A stretch of DNA of 64,000 bases from Escherichia phage vB_EcoM_ACG-C40. Location of the stretch: the sequence record NC_019399.1. The stretch is one strand, 5' to 3'. The notes beneath the pieces are model-generated. The model saw nothing but the letters and a program-made list of their open reading frames with translations, was not told where the DNA came from and ran no database searches. Position 1 is the stretch's first letter; every line of letters begins with the position of its first letter. A program made the position numbers and the translations under genes. Positions 16,948 to 63,989 of this stretch are shown here, one piece after another.

Positions 16948-16980
16948 ATGGGGACCTTTCGGTCCCCATATTTTTATTTA
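16948..16980. terminator. bidirectional hairpin terminator after gene 54
   Basis: atggggacc-tttc-ggtccccat followed by tttttattt. Confidence 0.65.
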
Positions 16981-17264
16981 CGGAATGAAATGAAAGCAGA
17001 AACTGAAGCAACTAAACTGTCTTCAATATAAACTTCAATTTTTACCGGAGCTTCTGACTCAAATTTACCTGTTACTACACCTTGGAAAATACTTTCAGTC
17101 TGTTCTGGTTTTGAAAAATTTTCAGAAGGAAAAATTCCGAACTTTTTATCTGTTCCAAAAATTTTAATAAATTCATCGTAAACTGCTTCATTAAAAGCAT
17201 TATCAGCAGGAATAACGCCTTCAACGACGAGCTCTTGGCCTAAAAAGCGTAAAGAAGATTTCAT
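16974..17264 (-). CDS. hypothetical protein (96 aa)
   Basis: ORF track; preceded by repeated promoter/leader element and SD. Confidence 0.55.
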   Translation of the reverse strand: MKSSLRFLGQELVVEGVIPADNAFNEAVYDEFIKIFGTDKKFGIFPSENFSKPEQTESIFQGVVTGKFESEAPVKIEVYIEDSLVASVSAFISFRK

Positions 17265-17272
17265 TTTGTGTT

Positions 17273-17324
17273 CCTCATGTTATGTCAGTAAGACTACTGT
17301 AACACAACACGAGGGACTTGTAAA
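17273..17324. repeat. 52-bp perfect repeat, copy 1 (second copy at 30980..31031)
   Basis: identical string cctcatgttatgtcagtaagactactgtaacacaacacgagggacttgtaaac at both loci. Confidence 0.85.
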
Positions 17325-17685
17325 CTACATTTTGAACTTTTTAGTACGCGTAATAGGCATGCGTCGATTTTATACTGTTTCATTGTTTGAAGAGCAGTAT
17401 CAAAAACAGCATTAATGACACCAATTGGATTTCCACCCAAGTTTTTAAGCTTAACTAATGATAGTTTCTCATTAACACCTATCATTACGATATGCATCAT
17501 TTTGTCGCCTGGTTTAACGTTTTATCTGTATCACCGCCAGAGGTGTATGTACAAAATCTAAATCCAGGAAGCACGCTTTCTTCGCCGGCTTGAATAGCAA
17601 AAATTTGTGGTATTTTATGCTTAGGATTTAAGTTAACAACCGGCGCCGAAGCGCCGTCAAATAATTATGTAATAAGTTCCATGAT
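17294..17685 (-). pseudogene. degenerate tandem partial copy of the alt 5' region
   Basis: - strand reads MELIT*LFDGASAPVVNLNPKHKIPQIF...FRFCTYTSGGDT then MMHIV...MKQYKIDACLLRVLKS, paralogous to Alt residues 1-120 but with stop at codon 6 and frame breaks. Confidence 0.7.
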
Positions 17686-23672: not shown

Positions 23673-23713
23673 AGTATTTTCCTCAGTAAGGGGCCGAAGC
23701 CCCTCATTTTATT

Positions 23714-24079
23714 TTAAATATCAAATTCGTTAAGAACTACATCAAAGATTGCTTCAAGATGCTCAGGTTTAGCTCTGTTACTCAGAATATGACGAATCCA
23801 AGTTTTAACCAGAAGCTTGCGATTAACGCCATTCCAGCAAGGATGAGTCCCTAAATCGCGTTGACGAAAATCATCATCCAAAGCAATTTTGAAGTTGGAA
23901 CCTTCCATTGTGATTGAAACCGTGATGCCATTTTCAAATCGCATATAAACGTAGTTAGGAGTCATATACTGTTCAATTTCGCATACTGATCCATTTTGAT
24001 GTTTCCAAAGGCAAATAGTATCAATAGAACCTGCAATACCATTAGAAACATATTTACGTTCAAAGTTGATGTAGTTCAT
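23714..24079 (-). CDS. hypothetical protein (121 aa)
   Basis: ORF track. Confidence 0.55.
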   Translation of the reverse strand: MNYINFERKYVSNGIAGSIDTICLWKHQNGSVCEIEQYMTPNYVYMRFENGITVSITMEGSNFKIALDDDFRQRDLGTHPCWNGVNRKLLVKTWIRHILSNRAKPEHLEAIFDVVLNEFDI

Positions 24080-24147
24080 TTTTATTCTCCGAGATGTTTA
24101 ATTGCGGTACAGGTATATAATATCATATCCTGTACCAAAGTAAACAA

Positions 24148-24480
24148 TTATTTTACTACTTTCCAGTGCTGCATGTCAAGTTTACCAACTTTTTTCATCT
24201 TCTCAATTAAGCGTTCGGCGCGTTGGCGAGCTGTAACATAATACCATTCACCTAATTCATTTTGTTCAATTTTTCCAACGATTACTGTGTTCAATTCATA
24301 AATCCAACCAGTAAAGAAATTATGAACTTGAATTGTAAAGGTGAAATCTGTTCCCATGCCTTCTGTTGTTTCTACTTCAATAATATCACCTTCAACTGCC
24401 ATTAAGAACCACATAGTTTCATCATATTTACCGTTGAAGCATTTAGTTTTAACTGCAGCGTTCAGATTAATCGTTTTCAT
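24148..24480 (-). CDS. hypothetical protein (110 aa)
   Basis: ORF track. Confidence 0.55.
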   Translation of the reverse strand: MKTINLNAAVKTKCFNGKYDETMWFLMAVEGDIIEVETTEGMGTDFTFTIQVHNFFTGWIYELNTVIVGKIEQNELGEWYYVTARQRAERLIEKMKKVGKLDMQHWKVVK

Positions 24481-24504
24481 TTTATTCTCCTTTGTTTGTG
24501 TAAG

Positions 24505-24540
24505 ATAATACTATCACAAAGGAACCATACTGTAAACAAC
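24505..24540 (-). promoter_or_regulatory. T4 early-type promoter (GTTTAC -35, TAGTAT -10)
   Basis: - strand GTTTACA-18nt-TAGTAT upstream of gene starting 24480. Confidence 0.5.
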
Positions 24541-27414: not shown

Positions 27415-27647
27415 AGTACGCCATACACCCTTTGTGCTTCAACTAATCCATCAAAATCCAATTTGAGATGTGTTATTTGGTCACCATCACCTGGATTCAC
27501 AATTACTAATACTGAACGAGGAGTTTCGGTAATAACGCGAACCGATGTTTCCGGAAATCGTTCAGAAACCTTATTTACCAATTCCTGGGCAAATAGTTTA
27601 ACTTTTTCTTGGAATTCTTTAACAGTAATTGGTTTTTCACTTAGCAT
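27411..27647 (-). CDS. hypothetical protein (78 aa)
   Basis: ORF track. Confidence 0.55.
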   Translation of the reverse strand: MLSEKPITVKEFQEKVKLFAQELVNKVSERFPETSVRVITETPRSVLVIVNPGDGDQITHLKLDFDGLVEAQRVYGVL

Positions 27648-27669
27648 TTTGTTTTCCTCATTCGTTTTG

Positions 27670-27710
27670 GTAGAGCTATAATATCACAACTCTACCATAA
27701 AGTAAACTGT
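27670..27710 (-). promoter_or_regulatory. T4 early-type promoter (GTTTAC -35, TATTAT -10)
   Basis: - strand GTTTAC-18nt-TATTAT upstream of gene starting 27647. Confidence 0.5.
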
Positions 27711-30126: not shown

Positions 30127-30476
30127 TTAGAAAGGTCCTGGATGTCTTCTGCGAACTTGTTGAAGGAGTTGTTGATTTGTTTTTCAACCAATCCTGGCTT
30201 ATGAGCCACCACATCCGCCTTCTTTGCGTCTTTGCGCAGTTTTTCATTTTCACGCTCAATAGCAGCAATTGCCTCACGATTTTTATTATTCATCGCATCA
30301 ATATAATTATACTGAATTCGCAAATTATTTAATGCTAAGGCGTTTTCATTGGCCGTTTTTGTAATTTCAGTAACTGATGTTTCTAATCTTTCTACCTTAT
30401 TTTTTAAAATAATAGATGTTCCGCCAAATGCTATTACAAGTAATAGCAATCCAGCTGTAAAATTACTTACATGCAT
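30123..30476 (-). CDS. pseT.3: inner-membrane spanin (i-spanin)
   Basis: N-terminal transmembrane segment followed by coiled-coil-rich periplasmic domain; overlaps o-spanin start. Confidence 0.6.
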   Translation of the reverse strand: MHVSNFTAGLLLLVIAFGGTSIILKNKVERLETSVTEITKTANENALALNNLRIQYNYIDAMNNKNREAIAAIERENEKLRKDAKKADVVAHKPGLVEKQINNSFNKFAEDIQDLSK

Positions 30477-30970
30477 AAAGTTTTAATAACCTCTATAATA
30501 TCGTCTTGAGAAAGACCGTTAATTAAAATATGATGTTCAGCCGGAGATTTAGAAATTTTAAAGCACGCCGCAACATCTTCTGCCATATCCGATGCGCTAC
30601 GATTTGGATTACTAATTCCAAGACGATGCTTTCCTGTCAAAGGATTAACGATGATATAGCATTTGCAGCTATTGATATGAACATTAGGTTGAGTCTGATT
30701 AATAAACACTTCACAATCATACTTAGCGAGTTGATTTTCTAAAAAGACTTTCATCTCCTCAACCGCATCAGGAAGCATATCACGGGCTTGCTCAAGACGA
30801 CGATTTCGATATTCTTTAATGGTTGTTTTCCGCTTTACTTGCTTAGCTAAATCTTTCTTAAGATCGGTGATATATCCAACTCGACGATTTCCTTTGAATA
30901 CAGAAATCCCATCTGTAGTATCACCGTATGCTTCAACGACCATTTCAGTAGTAATGAGCTGCAAATCCAT
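30467..30970 (-). CDS. alc: Alc, inhibitor of host transcription
   Basis: 167-aa product from MDLQLITTEMVVEAYGD; track ORF has a 5-codon extension that lies within the 52-bp repeat. Confidence 0.75.
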   Translation of the reverse strand: MDLQLITTEMVVEAYGDTTDGISVFKGNRRVGYITDLKKDLAKQVKRKTTIKEYRNRRLEQARDMLPDAVEEMKVFLENQLAKYDCEVFINQTQPNVHINSCKCYIIVNPLTGKHRLGISNPNRSASDMAEDVAACFKISKSPAEHHILINGLSQDDIIEVIKTLCM

Positions 30971-30979
30971 CATAAAGTC

Positions 30980-31031
30980 CCTCATGTTATGTCAGTAAGA
31001 CTACTGTAACACAACACGAGGGACTTGTAAA
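30980..31031. repeat. 52-bp perfect repeat, copy 2 (first copy at 17273..17324)
   Basis: identical 52-nt string; - strand reads GTTTACAAGTCCCTCGTGTTGTGTTACAGTAGTCTTACTGACATAACATGAGG. Confidence 0.85.
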
Positions 31032-31035
31032 CAAC

Positions 31036-32623
<1,588 letters not shown>

Positions 32624-39861: not shown

Positions 39862-39964
39862 TTTATTCTCCTTAGCAAGCTTTAATCAAAAGATATAAAC
39901 AAACCAACATAACTGCTGCCATAATATAAGGTGCTAACATTTTCTTTTCTCCATTAGTTTTGAT

Positions 39965-40005
39965 AGGGTAATAGTATCACACTACTACCCTGCTGTAAAC
40001 TACTT
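39965..40005 (-). promoter_or_regulatory. T4 early-type promoter (GTTTACA -35, TACTAT -10)
   Basis: - strand GTTTACAgcagggtagtagtgtgaTACTAT; member of a repeated family. Confidence 0.5.
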
Positions 40006-40659: not shown

Positions 40660-40697
40660 ATTATTTTCCTCTTTAATTATCAGCAGTATTGCCGATA

Positions 40698-40735
40698 GTT
40701 GTATAGTACCATGGAAGGACAAGGATGTAAACAGT
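40698..40735 (-). promoter_or_regulatory. T4 early-type promoter (GTTTACA -35, TACTAT -10)
   Basis: same gatag...gtaaac repeat family as 39965, 58268, 61406, 61922. Confidence 0.5.
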
Positions 40736-44670: not shown

Positions 44671-47600
44671 ATGGCCGAGATTAAAAGAAAGTTCAGAGCA
44701 GAAGATGGTCTGGACGCAGGTGGCGATAAAATAATCAACGTAGCTTTAGCTGATCGTACCGTAGGAACTGACGGTGTTAACGTTGATTACTTAATTCAAG
44801 AAAACACAGTTCAGCAATATGATCCAACTCGTGGATATTTAAAAGATTTTGTAATCATTTATAATAATCGTTTTTGGGCAGCAACGGATAATATTCCAAA
44901 ACCTGCTGGAAATTTTAATAGAATTCGTTGGAAAGCATTACGTACTGATGCCGTATATACAACCGTATCATCTGGACCATATCAATTAAAATCCGGAGAA
45001 GCAATTTCAGTAGATACATCAGTTGGCAATGACATTGAGTTTACTTTACCATCTTCTCCGCTTAATGGAGAAACCGTAATAATTCAAGATATCGGTGGAA
45101 AACCTGGCATAAATCAGGTTAAAATAAATTCTTCAAATCAGAGTATTGTCAATTTTAGAGGTGAACAGGTACGTTCAGTTTTAATGACTCATCCAAAGTC
45201 ACAGATGGTATTCATTTTTAATAATCGTTTGTGGCAAATGTATATTGCTGATTATAGCAGAGAAGCTGCGATTGTTACTCCATCGACTGCGTATCAAGCA
45301 CAATCTAATGATTTTATCGTACGTAGATTTACTTCTGCTGCACCAATTAATGTTAAACTTCCGAGATTTGCTAATCATGGCGATATTATTAATTTCGTTG
45401 ATTTAGATAAACTGAATCCACTTTATCATACAATTGTTACTACATACGATGAAACGACTTCAGTACAAGAAGTTGGAACTCATTCCATTGAAGGCCGTAC
45501 ATCGATTAACGGTTTCTTGATGTTTGACGATAATGAGAAATTGTGGAGATTGTTTGACGGGGATAGTAAAGCACGTTTACGCATTATAACAACTAATTCA
45601 AATATTCGTCCAAATGAAGAAGTCATGGTATTTGGCGCGAATAATAGAACAACCCAAACAATTGAACTTCAGCTTCCGACTGATATTTCTGTTGGTGATA
45701 CTGTTAAAATTTCCATGAATTACATGAGAAAAGGACAAACAGTTAAAATCAAAGCTGCTGGTGAAGATAAAATTGCTTCTTCAGTTCAATTGCTGCAATT
45801 CCCAAAACGTTCAGAATATCCGCCTGAAGCTGAATGGGTAACAGTTCAAGAATTAGTTTTTAACGGTGAAACTAATTATGTTCCAGTTTTACAACTTGCT
45901 TATATAGAAGATTCTGATGGAAAATACTGGGTTGTACAGCAAAACGTTCCAACTGTAGAAAGAGTAGACTCTTTAAATGCTTCTACTAGAGCAAGATTAG
46001 GCGTAATTGCTTTAGCTACGCAAGCTCAAGCAAATGCTGATTTAGAAAATTCTCCGCAAAAAGAATTGGCAATTACTCCAGAAACGTTAGCTAATCGTAC
46101 TGCTACAGAAACTCGCAGAGGTATCGCAAGAATAGCAACTACTGCTCAAGTAAATCAGAACACTACATTCTCTTTTGCTGATGACCTTATCATCACTCCT
46201 AAAAAGCTGAATGAAAGAACTGCTACAGAAACTCGCAGAGGTGTTGCTGAAATTGCTACGCAGCAGGAAACTAATACAGGTATCGATGATACTACAATCA
46301 TCACTCCTAAAAAGCTTCAAGCTCGTCAAGGTTCTGAATCATTATCTGGTATTGTAACTTTTGTATCTACCGCAGGAGCTACTCCAGCTTCTAGTCGTGA
46401 ATTAAATGGTACGAATGTTTATAATAAAAACACTAATAATTTAGTTGTTTCACCTAAAGCTTTGGATCAGTATAAAGCTACTCCAACGCAACAAGGCGCA
46501 GTAATTTTAGCAGTTGAAAGTGAAGTAATTGCTGGACAAAGCCAAGAAGGATGGGCAAATGCGGTTGTAACGCCAGAAACGTTACATAAAAAGACATCAA
46601 CTGATGGAAGAATTGGTTTAATTGAAATTGCTACGCAAAGTGAAGTTAATACAGGAACTGACTATACTCGTGCAGTCACTCCTAAAACTTTAAATGACCG
46701 TAGAGCAACTGAAAGTTTAAGTGGTATAGCTGAAATTGCTACGCAAGTTGAATTCGACGCAGGCGTCGACGATACTCGTATCTCTACACCATTAAAAATT
46801 AAAACCAGATTTAATAGTACTGATCGTACTTCTGTTGTTGCTCTATCTGGATTAGTTGAATCAGGAACTCTCTGGGACCATTATACCCTTAATATTCTTG
46901 AAGCAAATGAGACACAGCGTGGTACACTTCGTGTAGCTACACAAGTTGAAGCTGCTGCAGGAACATTAGATAATGTTTTAATAACTCCTAAAAAGCTTTT
47001 AGGTACTAAATCTACCGAATCGCAAGAAGGTGTTATTAAAGTTGCAACTCAGTCTGAAACTGTGACTGGAACGTCAGCAAATACTGCTGTATCTCCAAAA
47101 AATTTAAAATGGATTGTGCAGAGTGAACCTACTTGGGCAGCTACTACTGCGATAAGAGGTTTTGTTAAAACTTCATCTGGTTCAATTACATTCGTTGGTA
47201 ATGATACAGTCGGTTCTACACAAGATTTAGAACTGTATGAGAAAAATAGCTATGCAGTATCACCATATGAATTAAACCGTGTATTAGCAAATTATCTGCC
47301 GTTAAAAGCAAAAGCTGTAGATAGTAATTTATTGGATGGTCTAGATTCATCTCAGTTCATTCGTAGGGATATTGCACAGACGGTTAATGGTTCACTAACC
47401 TTAACCCAACAAACGAATCTGAGTGCCCCTCTTGTATCATCTAGTACTGCTACGTTTGGTGGTTCAGTTTCGGCAAATAGTGTACTAACTATTTCTAATA
47501 CTGGAACAGAAACTCATCTGATTTTTGAGAAAGGACCTCAAACTGGAACTAACCAAGCACAGACGGTGACTATTAGAGTGTGGGGTAATCAATTTAGTGG

Positions 47601-61281: not shown

Positions 61282-61381
61282 AGTAAACGTTTAATACATC
61301 AATCATTAAAACGATTGGGAATATACTCAAAACTATTAGTATTATAACTACATTCCATATAGCTTTAATAATCTTTTTCAT
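61268..61381 (-). CDS. small membrane peptide (37 aa from MKKIIKAIWNVV...)
   Basis: track ORF trimmed to Met preceded by SD GGAGGAA and early promoter. Confidence 0.45.
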   Translation of the reverse strand: MKKIIKAIWNVVIILIVLSIFPIVLMIDVLNVYFGFM

Positions 61382-61405
61382 TTTCTGTTCCTCCGTAGTT
61401 GATAG

Positions 61406-61441
61406 GGTAATAGTACCACGGAAGAACAGTCTTGTAAACAA
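61406..61441 (-). promoter_or_regulatory. T4 early-type promoter
   Basis: - strand GTTTACA-18nt-TACTAT. Confidence 0.5.
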
Positions 61442-62788: not shown

Positions 62789-62805
62789 AATTTTTCCTTA
62801 AAAAC

Positions 62806-62830
62806 AAAAGGGCCGAAGCCCTTTATTTTA
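62806..62830. terminator. bidirectional hairpin terminator
   Basis: aaaagggcc-gaag-ccctttatttt. Confidence 0.55.
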
Positions 62831-63022
62831 CTTGAATTGTGCAATTCTTTTCTCTAGACATTCAGCATAAGATTTCATTGAGATAAACTGCGAAAGTAAC
62901 AGTTCTTGCTCAACTGCATTAACTGTTAGAAACTTTGCGCTTTCTAAAAATTTGCTCAGTGCATTAATTTTGAGCATTAATTGATCGTATTCTTCTTTTA
63001 CTCGTGCTTGATAACCTAACAT
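62828..63022 (-). CDS. hypothetical protein (64 aa)
   Basis: ORF track. Confidence 0.5.
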   Translation of the reverse strand: MLGYQARVKEEYDQLMLKINALSKFLESAKFLTVNAVEQELLLSQFISMKSYAECLEKRIAQFK

Positions 63023-63050
63023 AATTTTCCTTAGTTAAGGGCCGAAGCCC

Positions 63051-63989
63051 TTATTTAAATTGTTCAGTAACGTCTTCAACTACTTCGTATTGGCAGGTAC
63101 GCATTTTAGCATCGTTGTAATCAATCGGAATTGATACTACATCACGCGGATGTACTTTAACTTTTACAACTCGACTAGTTGAACTGCCAAAGTGACGAAT
63201 ATAAGATTTAGAACACACATGCAGACCACGAGAACAAGTTTGTGTATCATCGTCATTCACACGAGTACGTGGCATTTTAACTACTTTACCCGGACTGTTA
63301 TCAAAGGTGTTTGAGTGACAGTCAAAGTAGTTGTCACGAACTACTTTCCAAGCATAGAAGTAACCATCTTCTGTAATTTCAATATCATTTGCTACCAAGA
63401 AATCAAAGAGTCGAGATACCGCTTTTTGGCTTGGGTTTTCCAGCAGATTTTCCAAGAACGGAAAATAAAATTCAAAGTTTTCACCTTTTTCCATCGAATC
63501 GAGAATACGATCAACCAGACCAGACCGTAATTCGATATTTTGATAGAACAAGCTTCCGCCTTCAATTCGAACATCACCAGAAATATATTTTTCAACAGCG
63601 CGACGAACATTAATTTTTTGTGCCGCTTCTTCCAACTTATCCGCTACAAGCAGATTAAGAATTTCCTGGAAGTTTGAATGAGTATTAGGAGTTGCGTTAT
63701 AAGTTACACCGTCAACAGTAATTGAAATGAATTTTTTAGATGCATTCCAAATAATGTCAGATTTAGCAACTGGAGCAATAGCTACATCGCTATTAACTTT
63801 AACTGTAATATCACCGCTAATAGTAACTTTAGAGCGTTTAGCTTCTTCAGCATTTTTCAAAACACGACGGATTGTGTCAACCGATACACCTTGCCAATCA
63901 GCCAATTCCTGTTGGGTGTAATTACCACTTGAATACAGCTTAACAATTTCAGCTTGTTCGTTTTTGGTCAGGCATTTAATATTGTACAT
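63051..63989 (-). CDS. rIIB: rIIB protein
   Basis: 312-aa ORF MYNIKCLTKNEQAEIVKLYSSGNYTQQELADW..., recognised. Confidence 0.9.
   Translation of the reverse strand: MYNIKCLTKNEQAEIVKLYSSGNYTQQELADWQGVSVDTIRRVLKNAEEAKRSKVTISGDITVKVNSDVAIAPVAKSDIIWNASKKFISITVDGVTYNATPNTHSNFQEILNLLVADKLEEAAQKINVRRAVEKYISGDVRIEGGSLFYQNIELRSGLVDRILDSMEKGENFEFYFPFLENLLENPSQKAVSRLFDFLVANDIEITEDGYFYAWKVVRDNYFDCHSNTFDNSPGKVVKMPRTRVNDDDTQTCSRGLHVCSKSYIRHFGSSTSRVVKVKVHPRDVVSIPIDYNDAKMRTCQYEVVEDVTEQFK

What the first reader, a model, noticed from the sequence alone, without database searches (positions are those of the whole stretch)
17273..17324. 52-bp perfect repeat at two loci 13.7 kb apart
An identical 52-nt string lies just 5' of two unrelated - strand genes: the 96-aa ORF at 16974..17264, and alc, with the second copy at 30980..31031. 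On the - strand it reads GTTTACA-17nt-TACAGT followed by a leader with ATGAGG, so it looks like a duplicated early-promoter/leader cassette. Exact identity over 52 nt in otherwise diverged intergenic DNA suggests recent gene conversion or a recombination hotspot.
Basis: seen in the sequence. Interest (0 to 1): 0.45.

Follow-up and report, generated by a model that had tools for sequence, protein, structure and literature searches.

The report
Duplicated early promoter inside RNA hairpin

Summary
An exact 53-nt (not 52) direct repeat lies on the minus strand at 17273-17325 and 30980-31032, with no match expected by chance. The window is a Tequatrovirus (T4-like phage). Copy A precedes alt.-3 and copy B precedes alc. 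Each copy reads as a T4-type early promoter (GTTTACA, 17 nt, TGn, TACAGT) followed by a short leader and a GAGG ribosome-binding site.

The pair is not a recent event. About 498 phage records, T4 included, carry both copies, which differ at 0-6 positions within one genome. Copies in the same genome are no more alike than copies from different genomes (p=0.53).

The 53-mer is also a long hairpin. The promoter spacer and -10 pair with the leader and GAGG. Upstream of alc this hairpin occurs in at least eight Tevenvirinae genera with strong covariation (92% paired against 66% shuffled; 13/13 pairs compensatory). Other genera have a different promoter type at alt.-3, so Tequatrovirus probably copied the alc cassette there long ago.

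Predicted cost of opening the ribosome site is 16-26 kcal/mol in read-through RNA and 5-6.5 in promoter-initiated RNA. This is probably a translational gate like T4 e, soc and 49, but with an early promoter. No experiment has tested it.

The parts
17273..17325 (-). Copy A of the 53-nt cassette, upstream of alt.-3. It overlaps the 3' end of the alt.-2 pseudo-ORF (17294..17500).
17319..17324 (-). Copy A -35 hexamer TTTACA, within GTTTACA
17296..17304 (-). Copy A extended -10 (TGT) plus -10 hexamer TACAGT (17301..17296). The predicted start is near A at 17289 (inferred from spacing, not measured).
   Evidence: sequence
17273..17314 (-). Copy A RNA hairpin. 5' arm 17314-17302 plus 17299-17295, loop 17294-17291, 3' arm 17290-17286 plus 17285-17273. 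The 3' arm ends in the GAGG Shine-Dalgarno (17276-17273).
   Evidence: MFE -24.6 kcal/mol, z -3.6
16974..17264 (-). alt.-3 CDS (96 aa), the gene served by copy A
16948..16969 (.). Bidirectional terminator-like hairpin between gene 54 and alt.-3. It ends the alt.-3 transcription unit.
   Evidence: annotated as terminator in phage e11/2
30980..31032 (-). Copy B of the 53-nt cassette, in the rnlA-alc intergenic space. The rnlA stop codon is at 31036-31038.
31026..31031 (-). Copy B -35 hexamer TTTACA
31003..31011 (-). Copy B extended -10 (TGT) plus -10 hexamer TACAGT (31008..31003). The predicted start is near A at 30996 (inferred).
30975..31026 (-). Copy B RNA hairpin. It has the same pairs as copy A plus 5 further base pairs (AAGUC/GACUU), giving 23 bp with a 2-nt bulge. 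The Shine-Dalgarno GAGG (30983-30980) lies in the 3' arm.
   Evidence: MFE -35.9 kcal/mol, z -5.2
30467..30970 (-). alc CDS, with the start equivalent to the T4 annotation. An in-frame ATG also lies at 30973.

Best explanation
Each copy is a compact expression cassette: a strong T4-type sigma-70 early promoter (-35 GTTTACA, 17-nt spacer, TGn, -10 TACAGT), a leader of about 16 nt and a GAGG Shine-Dalgarno.

The cassette is also a hairpin. The promoter spacer and -10 (5' arm) are complementary to the initial transcribed sequence and the Shine-Dalgarno (3' arm). RNA polymerase that starts at the cassette's own promoter begins inside the loop or 3' arm. Its transcript therefore lacks the 5' arm and has an open ribosome-binding site.

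Transcripts arriving from upstream carry both arms. For alc these come through rnlA. For alt.-3 they come through alt and its pseudogene remnants. No terminator intervenes in either case. In these RNAs the Shine-Dalgarno is locked in a 19-23-bp helix, so they should be poorly translated. Alc and Alt.-3 synthesis would then be tied to the short period when early promoters fire, even though the genes go on being transcribed by read-through.

Evolution: the hairpin-embedded promoter is ancestral upstream of alc across Tevenvirinae. In the Tequatrovirus lineage the alt.-3 promoter was replaced by a copy of the alc cassette. The transfer was probably mediated by short homologies that all early promoters share (GTTTACAA on the left, CATGAGGA on the right). 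Both copies have since been held nearly constant by stacked constraints: promoter, ribosome site and base pairing.

Shown: the repeat, the promoter motifs, the predicted structure, covariation, and the distribution across phages. Inferred: promoter activity, start site, translational occlusion and the direction of transfer.
For: - Promoter motifs with TG before the -10 at both copies. Orthologous sites are annotated as predicted early promoters in phage fPS-65. Alc is an immediate-early product.
- Hairpin energies: MFE -35.9 kcal/mol (z -5.2) for the alc copy, -24.6 (z -3.6) for the alt.-3 copy and -26.9 (z -3.6) for T4 alc. RNAs starting at the predicted +1 are unstructured, at -3.9 and -2.2 kcal/mol with z about 0.
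- Cost of opening the ribosome-binding region: 26.4 and 16.5 kcal/mol in read-through RNA, against 6.5 and 4.9 in promoter-initiated RNA.
- Conservation: of 38 distinct rnlA-alc intergenic sequences, about 26-30 have a 5' arm starting 1-3 nt after GTTTACA and a 3' arm ending in the Shine-Dalgarno. They cover Tequatro-, Dhaka-, Karam-, Gelderland-, Jiaoda-, Roskilde-, Winkler- and Marfavirus plus IMG/VR contigs. The arm sequences differ between genera but stay complementary.
- Cognate arms pair at -16.9 kcal/mol against -8.9 for non-cognate arms.
- Covariance-model alignment: 92.1% of cells paired against 66.0% in shuffles (0/500) and 40-47% when the partner is slid. All 13 pairs show changes on both sides. 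Covariation score is 0.614 against 0.183.
- On 34 sense-strand alc leaders alone, 94.7% are paired and 12/13 pairs are compensatory.
- G-U pairs outnumber A-C mismatches 11 to 5, which fits sense-strand RNA rather than DNA.
- Within the genus, common polymorphisms sit in the loop or keep pairing (C-G to U-G, G-U to A-U). T4's alt.-3 copy has a compensatory U27-A40. The T2/HP3 alt.-3 haplotype (11T, 15T, 16A) lengthens the stem into alt.-3-specific sequence.
- No terminator lies between the upstream genes and either copy.
- alt.-3 promoters of Dhaka-, Mosig- and Gaprivervirus are of another type, with a small hairpin inside the spacer and a free Shine-Dalgarno. This supports an alc-to-alt.-3 transfer in Tequatrovirus.
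Against: - No transcription-start, structure-probing or translation data for these sites were found. Promoter use and occlusion are predictions.
- In some lineages the alc hairpin is absent, or brackets the -10 without including the Shine-Dalgarno. Examples are Mosigvirus JS09 and loci L056, L062, L073, L074, L075 and L077. What is conserved may therefore be 'a hairpin around the -10' rather than occlusion as such.
- A ribosome terminating on rnlA, or translating the alt.-2 pseudo-ORF, which ends inside the hairpin, could partly melt the stem.
- The covariance-model alignment is fitted to the structure and leans towards it.
- The G-U excess over A-C is small.
- The transfer direction rests on three outgroup genera for alt.-3.
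Confidence: 0.6

Rival explanations
1. The hairpin acts on the upstream transcript rather than on translation. It would be a terminator or attenuator, a 3'-end stabiliser, or an RNase III or other processing site that separates rnlA (or alt) mRNA from the downstream gene. This would resemble PeSL stem-loops or promoter-coupled terminators.
For: PeSL stem-loops in T4-type phages terminate transcription and sit next to early promoters. Promoter-terminator overlap is reported as widespread in bacteria. Some alc-upstream hairpins exclude the Shine-Dalgarno but still bracket the -10. The 23-bp stem of the window's alc copy is long enough for RNase III (the length requirement is my own knowledge).
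Against: Neither copy has a U-tract after the stem, and the terminator scan finds nothing on the minus strand at either site. In other genera the stem is followed by A-rich sequence. In most lineages the stem is 10-17 bp, short for RNase III. In 26-30 of 38 sequences the 3' arm ends exactly at the Shine-Dalgarno. The geometry differs from PeSLs, where the stem lies upstream of the -35, and from promoter-coupled terminators, where the stem is the -35 and the T-tract is the spacer.
Confidence: 0.17
2. The hairpin is a translational-coupling device. It blocks independent initiation on read-through RNA, and ribosomes finishing the upstream ORF melt it, so the downstream gene is translated only when the upstream gene is.
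For: The rnlA stop codon lies 3-12 nt upstream of the -35 in all genera. The alt.-2 pseudo-ORF in this window ends inside the hairpin, at TAG 17296-17294.
Against: In copy B the first paired base is 9 nt beyond the rnlA stop codon, probably outside the reach of a terminating ribosome (inference from ribosome footprint sizes). Relatives with an intact second alt gene stop before the -35, so the alt.-2 arrangement is a pseudogene accident. A strong promoter placed inside the structure has no role in a pure coupling model.
Confidence: 0.1
3. This is a plain duplicated promoter kept identical by recent gene conversion or acting as a recombination hotspot. The self-complementarity is incidental.
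For: Exact identity here. Five polymorphic positions carry the same alleles at both loci in different genomes, which occasional conversion could produce. T4 recombination works on about 50 bp of homology (cited). The rare -10 C allele at alt.-3 co-occurs with the same allele at alc in this window and in phage KIT06.
Against: Within-genome copies are no more alike than between-genome copies (p=0.53). The pair is genus-wide and old. Four of the five shared alleles are transitions at structurally tolerant sites, so they could recur by mutation. No deletion, or third copy as evidence of duplication, is seen in 498 records. Strong covariation across genera shows that the complementarity is selected.
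Confidence: 0.08
4. The structure acts at DNA level. The inverted repeat would form a cruciform or be a palindromic operator for a phage or host protein that regulates both promoters.
For: The repeat is an imperfect palindrome centred near the -10/+1 region. Palindromic terminator stems can double as transcription-factor sites (section heading listed).
Against: Arm sequences differ between genera while complementarity is kept, and loop length varies from 4 to about 21 nt. This is typical of RNA structure, not of an operator. T4-type stems contain two G-U pairs, which would be G-T and C-A mismatches in DNA. G-U exceeds A-C 11 to 5.
Confidence: 0.05

Closest known systems
T4 early promoters (Pe): sigma-70 'UP/-35/TGn/-10' promoters (review PMC2988021)
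   Same: -35 GTTTACA, 17-nt spacer, TGn, -10 TAnnnT. The site lies directly upstream of a prereplicative gene with its own Shine-Dalgarno. The window holds 13 such sites, all on the minus strand.
   Different: The -10 (TACAGT or TATAGT) and the downstream region differ from the usual TACTAT...CTATCAA of the other sites. The alc copy lacks an obvious A-rich UP region directly upstream. The pair is 100% identical against 50% on average for other pairs.
RBS-occluding hairpins with an internal promoter in T4 genes e, soc, 49 and I-TevI (review PMC3014915, section 29)
   Same: The Shine-Dalgarno is buried in a helix in long transcripts from upstream. A promoter inside the structure makes a shorter RNA that lacks the 5' arm and can be translated. 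The structure is conserved in related phages.
   Different: In the known cases the internal promoter is a late promoter (TATAAATA), so the gene is silent early and active late. Here it is an early promoter, so the predicted logic is reversed: translated only from immediate-early transcripts. alc and alt.-3 are not on that review's list.
PeSL (promoter-early stem-loop) cassettes of T4-type phages (PMC2839356, PMC4122927)
   Same: Repeated intergenic cassettes made of an early promoter (T4/PST consensus TTTACW-N17-TAYWAT), a Shine-Dalgarno and a stem-loop. Recombination between them, with crossovers mapped between the -10 and the Shine-Dalgarno, moves or swaps modules. That is a plausible route for the alc-to-alt.-3 cassette transfer.
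   Different: The PeSL stem-loop lies upstream of the -35 and works as a terminator. Here the stem-loop encloses the promoter and ends in the Shine-Dalgarno, with no U-tract. The two copies are 13.7 kb apart and flank essential genes rather than a small ORFan, and no indel between them is seen.
Promoter-coupled terminators in bacteria (bioRxiv 10.64898/2026.08.19.745784)
   Same: One short intergenic sequence carries both a promoter and a hairpin that affects transcripts from the upstream unit.
   Different: There the stem-loop DNA is the -35, the T-tract is the spacer, and termination occurs about 10 bp upstream of the start. Here the 5' arm begins after the -35 and the 3' arm lies downstream of the start.

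Membership tests
T4-type early promoter (Pe) | -35 element GTTTAC(A), matching TTGACA | tested here: met
   TTTACA at 17324-17319 and 31031-31026
T4-type early promoter (Pe) | 17-bp spacer, extended -10 TGn and a -10 hexamer TAnnnT | tested here: met
   Spacer 17, TG present, TACAGT at both copies. T4 itself has TATAGT.
T4-type early promoter (Pe) | A/T-rich UP element at -40 to -60 | tested here: inconclusive
   Copy A has actaaaaagttcaaaatgta upstream. Copy B has an A/T tract further upstream (aaaaaatttat) and then cccagaaggatac.
T4-type early promoter (Pe) | Transcription starts immediately after infection without phage protein synthesis | not testable with these tools
   No start-site data for these sites in the held papers. 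Alc is described as an immediate-early product.
RBS-occluding hairpin with internal promoter (T4 e/soc/49/I-TevI type) | Shine-Dalgarno and/or AUG sequestered in a helix in transcripts from upstream | tested here: met
   GAGG is paired in the MFE and centroid structures. Opening costs are 26.4 and 16.5 kcal/mol. These are predictions only.
RBS-occluding hairpin with internal promoter (T4 e/soc/49/I-TevI type) | The promoter is placed so that its own transcript lacks the 5' arm | tested here: met
   The 5' arm is the promoter spacer plus the -10, so it lies upstream of any start from this promoter. RNA from +1 is unstructured.
RBS-occluding hairpin with internal promoter (T4 e/soc/49/I-TevI type) | The internal promoter is a late promoter (TATAAATA) | tested here: not met
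   The internal promoter is of early sigma-70 type. Hence 'works like' but is a variant of the described set, not a member.
RBS-occluding hairpin with internal promoter (T4 e/soc/49/I-TevI type) | The structure is conserved in related phages | tested here: met
   Covariation across at least 8 genera
RBS-occluding hairpin with internal promoter (T4 e/soc/49/I-TevI type) | Measured reduction of translation from the long transcript | not testable with these tools
   Needs reporter fusions or ribosome profiling
PeSL cassette | Early promoter plus Shine-Dalgarno plus start codon in a repeated intergenic unit | tested here: met
   The sequence fits the T4/PST consensus TTTACW-N17-TAYWAT except for the G at position 5 of the -10.
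PeSL cassette | Terminator-like stem-loop located just upstream of the -35 | tested here: not met
   No terminator-like hairpin on the minus strand upstream of either copy. The only strong hairpin overlaps the promoter.
PeSL cassette | Copies flank variable ORFs, with insertions or deletions between copies among relatives | tested here: not met
   Both copies are kept in about 498 records, 995 places. The interval holds essential genes 30 and 31.
Intrinsic or promoter-coupled terminator | G+C-rich stem followed by a U-tract; for the coupled type, the stem acts as the -35 and the T-tract as the spacer | tested here: not met

The most novel reading that the evidence does not exclude
'Promoter-in-hairpin' may be a general design of T4-type early genes. 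Eight of the 13 early promoters in this window have a significant hairpin whose 5' arm is the promoter spacer and whose 3' arm is the leader. In five of them the Shine-Dalgarno is included. If so, a whole class of genes would be translated only from immediate-early, promoter-proximal transcripts and silenced in the read-through ('delayed-early', middle or late) RNA that covers them. That would be a temporal gate mirroring the one known for late genes e, soc and 49. It would also explain part of the old distinction between immediate-early and delayed-early expression at the level of translation.
Probability: 0.35. Interest if true: 0.7.

Novelty: new variant of a known kind. Interest (0 to 1): 0.5.

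Why it matters
As flagged, the repeat is ordinary: two copies of a T4 early promoter cassette, present in T4 itself.

What it contains is more useful. It is a phylogenetically supported RNA structure that merges an early promoter with an RBS-occluding hairpin. The structure is absent from Rfam and from the T4 post-transcriptional review consulted.

If it works as predicted, Alc synthesis can be confined to the first minutes of infection although the gene goes on being transcribed from upstream. Alc is the factor that shuts off transcription of host DNA. The mechanism would extend the T4 'hairpin plus internal promoter' switch from late genes to early genes. It also gives a concrete case of a regulatory cassette copied from one gene to another.

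It can be tested directly with standard reporter fusions and compensatory mutations in T4. It also matters for annotation and for phage engineering, because inserting genes upstream, or replacing these promoters, would change the translation of the downstream gene.

Tried and rejected
- MAFFT plus RNAalifold on 35 alc leaders returned no structure, because arms and loops of different lengths were misaligned. I replaced it with a covariance model seeded on 7 equal-length sequences and with an alignment-free comparison of cognate and non-cognate arms.
- Concerted evolution: the permutation test on 15 genomes was negative (p=0.53). Five shared polymorphisms between the paralogues were judged ambiguous. 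Four are transitions at tolerant sites, and the expected overlap is not small if only about 20-25 changes are permitted.
- Intrinsic terminator: rejected.
- Rfam: no family at gathering score anywhere in the window.
- Pattern scans of IMG/VR and JGI metagenomes added only a few Tequatrovirus contigs.
- Literature: Miller et al. 2003 is not held. No T4 transcription-start map and no mention of an alc or alt.-3 leader structure was found. An older description in papers that are not held cannot be excluded.
- The probability that the Shine-Dalgarno is unpaired was misleading for the alt.-3 own-promoter RNA, because a weak -2 kcal/mol pairing with the coding region dominates. I used opening energies instead.
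- A reverse transfer in Mosigvirus (alc promoter resembling the alt.-3 type) was considered. The similarity is largely promoter consensus, so no claim is made.

Full report
**1. Observation**

The repeat is real and slightly longer than reported. An exact 53-nt string, GTTTACAAGTCCCTCGTGTTGTGTTACAGTAGTCTTACTGACATAACATGAGG, occurs twice on the minus strand, at 17273-17325 and 30980-31032. No match is expected by chance. The repeat finder extends it to 57/59. Outside it, similarity drops to chance: 11/30 identical upstream and 10/30 downstream.

The window is a Tequatrovirus, 97-99% identical to T4-like phages. Copy A sits 8 nt before the ATG of alt.-3 (16974-17264). It overlaps the end of the alt.-2 pseudo-ORF, a remnant of a second alt gene that is intact in many relatives. 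Copy B fills the rnlA(gene 63)-alc intergenic space.

**2. It is an early-promoter and ribosome-site cassette**

Both copies score as sigma-70 promoters. They have TTTACA, a 17-nt spacer, TG before the -10, and TACAGT. This is the T4 early-promoter layout described in PMC2988021. A GAGG Shine-Dalgarno ends the repeat.

The window contains 13 such GTTTAC-type sites, all on the minus strand. Over the same 53 positions the other 77 pairs average 50% identity (sd 8%, maximum 72%). The 100% of this pair is therefore not explained by promoter consensus.

Phage fPS-65 annotates both orthologous sites as predicted early promoters. Alc is an immediate-early product. I found no transcription-start data for either site, so promoter activity is inferred.

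**3. The pair is old and genus-wide, not a recent event in this genome**

The 53-mer finds 995 places in 498 phage records, two per record. T4 has both copies, and they differ by one base.

In 15 genomes for which I recovered both copies, the copies differ at 0-6 positions.

| Comparison | Mean differences |
|---|---|
| Paralogues within a genome | 2.40 |
| Paralogues between genomes | 2.44 |
| alc orthologues | 1.6 |
| alt.-3 orthologues | 2.9 |

The permutation test on the first two rows gives p=0.53. I see no sign of ongoing homogenisation.

Perfect identity in this window depends on one base, C at the third -10 position of the alt.-3 copy. Only 3 of about 540 records match the window's alt.-3 copy plus flanks exactly. 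About 113 of 498 match the exact 53-mer at their best place, and in the sampled rows that place is the alc copy. A short conversion from alc could explain this, but so could one transition.

Five polymorphic positions carry the same alleles at both loci in different genomes. That hints at occasional exchange. However, four of the five are transitions at positions the structure tolerates, so the hint is weak.

No deletion between the copies is seen. It would remove essential genes 30 and 31.

**4.

Positions below are numbered from the G of GTTTAC as 1. Folded as RNA, positions 12-24 pair with 41-53, with two G-U pairs. Positions 25-26 bulge. Positions 27-31 pair with 36-40 around a GUCU loop.

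The 5' arm is therefore the promoter spacer, the TGn and the -10. The 3' arm is the initial transcribed sequence plus the GAGG.

| RNA | MFE (kcal/mol) | z-score |
|---|---|---|
| alc copy, read-through | -35.9 | -5.2 |
| alt.-3 copy, read-through | -24.6 | -3.6 |
| T4 alc, read-through | -26.9 | -3.6 |
| alc copy, from predicted +1 | -3.9 | about 0 |
| alt.-3 copy, from predicted +1 | -2.2 | about 0 |

The alc copy is the most stable because five flanking pairs extend the stem to 23 bp.

The calculated cost of opening the ribosome-binding region also differs sharply.

| Gene | Read-through RNA (kcal/mol) | Own-promoter RNA (kcal/mol) |
|---|---|---|
| alc | 26.4 | 6.5 |
| alt.-3 | 16.5 | 4.9 |

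No terminator-like hairpin with a U-tract lies at or before either copy on the minus strand. Read-through from rnlA, and from alt, is therefore expected.

**5. The structure is selected**

I collected the rnlA-alc intergenic region from eight further genera in GenBank and from 43 IMG/VR loci found with an Alc protein profile. This gave 38 distinct sequences.

In about 26-30 of them a 5' arm begins 1-3 nt after GTTTACA and pairs with a 3' arm that ends in the Shine-Dalgarno. The arm sequences differ between genera but remain complementary:

| Lineage | 5' arm | 3' arm |
|---|---|---|
| Tequatrovirus | CCCTCGTGTTGTGT | ACATAACATGAGGG |
| Karamvirus | TCTCCATTTGGTTGTG | CACTAACCAAATGGAGA |
| Jiaodavirus | TCCTCATCAG | CTGATGAGGA |
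| Dhakavirus | TCTCCTCAT | ATGAGGAGA |
| Marfavirus | CCTCGTTTGTT | AACAAACGAGG |

Several measures agree.

- Cognate arms duplex at -16.9 kcal/mol on average, against -8.9 for non-cognate arms. For 26 of 38 sequences no foreign arm does as well.
- A covariance-model alignment gives 92.1% paired cells, against 66.0% in shuffles (0/500) and 40-47% with slid partners. All 13 pairs show changes on both sides. The covariation score is 0.614 against 0.183.
- On the 34 distinct sense-strand alc leaders alone, 94.7% of cells are paired and 12 of 13 pairs are compensatory.
- The alignment is fitted to the model, which inflates these figures somewhat. The alignment-free test does not have that weakness.
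- G-U pairs (11) outnumber A-C mismatches (5), as expected for sense-strand RNA rather than DNA.

Polymorphism within Tequatrovirus points the same way. The frequent variants lie in the loop (positions 32, 33) or preserve pairing (C-G to U-G at 13, 15 and 27; G-U to A-U at 16). T4's alt.-3 copy pairs U27 with A40. The T2/HP3 alt.-3 haplotype (11T, 15T, 16A) extends the stem into alt.-3-specific flanking sequence.

Exceptions exist. Mosigvirus and a few IMG/VR lineages lack occlusion of the Shine-Dalgarno, or have a hairpin around the -10 that stops short of it.

**6. Origin of the duplicate**

In JS98 (Dhakavirus) both loci have early promoters, but the two are only about 65-70% alike. Only the alc promoter has the occluding hairpin. 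The alt.-3 promoters of Dhaka-, Mosig- and Gaprivervirus share another design: a small hairpin inside the spacer, with the Shine-Dalgarno free.

The simplest reading is that the hairpin promoter is ancestral at alc. In the Tequatrovirus lineage, the alt.-3 promoter was then overwritten by the alc cassette.

The edges of the 53-mer coincide with sequences that both promoter types already shared: GTTTACAA on the left and CATGAGGA on the right. This fits homology-guided exchange of the kind shown for PeSL cassettes, where crossovers were mapped between the -10 and the Shine-Dalgarno. The direction of transfer is an inference from three outgroup genera.

**7. Mechanism proposed, and rivals**

The arrangement works like the T4 e, soc, 49 and I-TevI switches. 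In those, a hairpin hides the ribosome site in long transcripts, and a promoter inside the hairpin makes a translatable short transcript (PMC3014915). In those cases the internal promoter is a late promoter. Here it is an early one.

The prediction is therefore that Alc and Alt.-3 are made only from immediate-early, promoter-proximal RNA. alc is not mentioned in that review, and Rfam has no matching family.

Rivals considered:
- an effect on the upstream RNA (termination, stabilisation or processing);
- translational coupling;
- incidental complementarity maintained by gene conversion;
- a DNA-level palindrome.

These are weighed in the rival section. None is excluded by experiment.

**8. A wider pattern**

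Folding 70 nt from each of the other 11 early-promoter sites gives significant hairpins of the same geometry at six of them.

| Site (window coordinate) | z-score | Shine-Dalgarno in stem |
|---|---|---|
| 61439 | -5.5 | yes |
| 27707 | -4.6 | no |
| 24145 | -4.4 | no |
| 24537 | -3.0 | yes |
| 40000 | -2.4 | no |
| 40732 | -2.3 | partly |

Five sites give no such hairpin. With the two copies studied here, 8 of 13 early promoters are 'promoter-in-hairpin'. I did not test covariation at these other sites.

**9. Verdict**

- The promoter and leader reading is supported.
- The reading as a recent conversion or recombination hotspot is not supported.
- The new content is a conserved hairpin that merges an early promoter with an occluded ribosome site, plus an old cassette transfer.
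- I rate it a new variant of a known kind, of moderate interest, with function still to be shown.

Noticed in passing
window 61370-61439, 40663-40732, 39931-40000, 27638-27707, 24468-24537, 24076-24145 (all minus strand): Six other GTTTAC-type early promoters have a significant hairpin whose 5' arm is the promoter spacer and whose 3' arm is the leader (z from -2.3 to -5.5). At 61439 and 24537 the Shine-Dalgarno lies in the stem. Five others (61952, 58300, 57954, 55336, 44625) have none. The covariance model built on alc leaders also hits 61377-61439 and 24481-24537.
   Followed up: partly
window 30979 (minus strand, first base after the repeat): The alc leader here reads GAGGGACTT, with one more G than T4 and the relatives (GAGGACTT). 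None of 498 records matches the 90-nt region exactly (best 97.8%). The extra G removes the 1-nt bulge, giving a perfect 23-bp stem, and puts the upstream ATG at 30985 in frame with alc. It could be a real variant or a sequencing error in a G run.
   Followed up: partly
window 17294-17683 (minus strand): alt.-1 and alt.-2 are the decayed remnant of a second alt gene, as in T4. Many relatives (RB9, T2, fPS-65, wV7, DalCa, HP3, JS98) have two full-length alt paralogues there. The alt.-2 pseudo-ORF runs into the promoter and ends at TAG 17296-17294, inside the hairpin.
   Followed up: partly
L033 (Mosigvirus JS09 alc upstream); L080, L081, L082, L028 (alt.-3 upstream): A second early-promoter design recurs: a short hairpin wholly inside the spacer (for example CCACAAGGATGTGG), with the Shine-Dalgarno left free. 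It is found at alt.-3 in Dhaka-, Mosig- and Gaprivervirus and at alc in Mosigvirus.
   Followed up: partly
L047, L048, L076 (IMG/VR contigs, alc upstream): In these contigs the rnlA-alc junction has no GTTTAC promoter. A G+C-rich terminator-like hairpin (AAAAGGGGTGTACAAGCCCCTTCTTT) precedes the leader, and the Alc match is longer (about 740 nt). This suggests an insertion or a different arrangement.
   Followed up: no
window 46072-46997 (plus strand): Diverged direct repeats of 29-68 nt (families D3 and D7, 65-79% identity). They appear to lie within a coding region and look like internal protein repeats.
   Followed up: no
window 23676-23731, 62795-62850, 63024-63061, 2109-2152: Repeated GGGCC-GAAG-GCCC(C) stem-loops followed by T-rich sequence (families D4 and D5), presumably intrinsic terminators of a common type.
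   Followed up: no
one search hits; L029-L036: In several other genera the Shine-Dalgarno enclosed by the alc hairpin is GGAG, the target motif of the RegB endoribonuclease. The review notes that secondary structure protects GGAG from RegB. The hairpin could therefore also decide which alc transcripts RegB can cut. Tequatrovirus has GAGG(A/G) and no GGAG.
   Followed up: no
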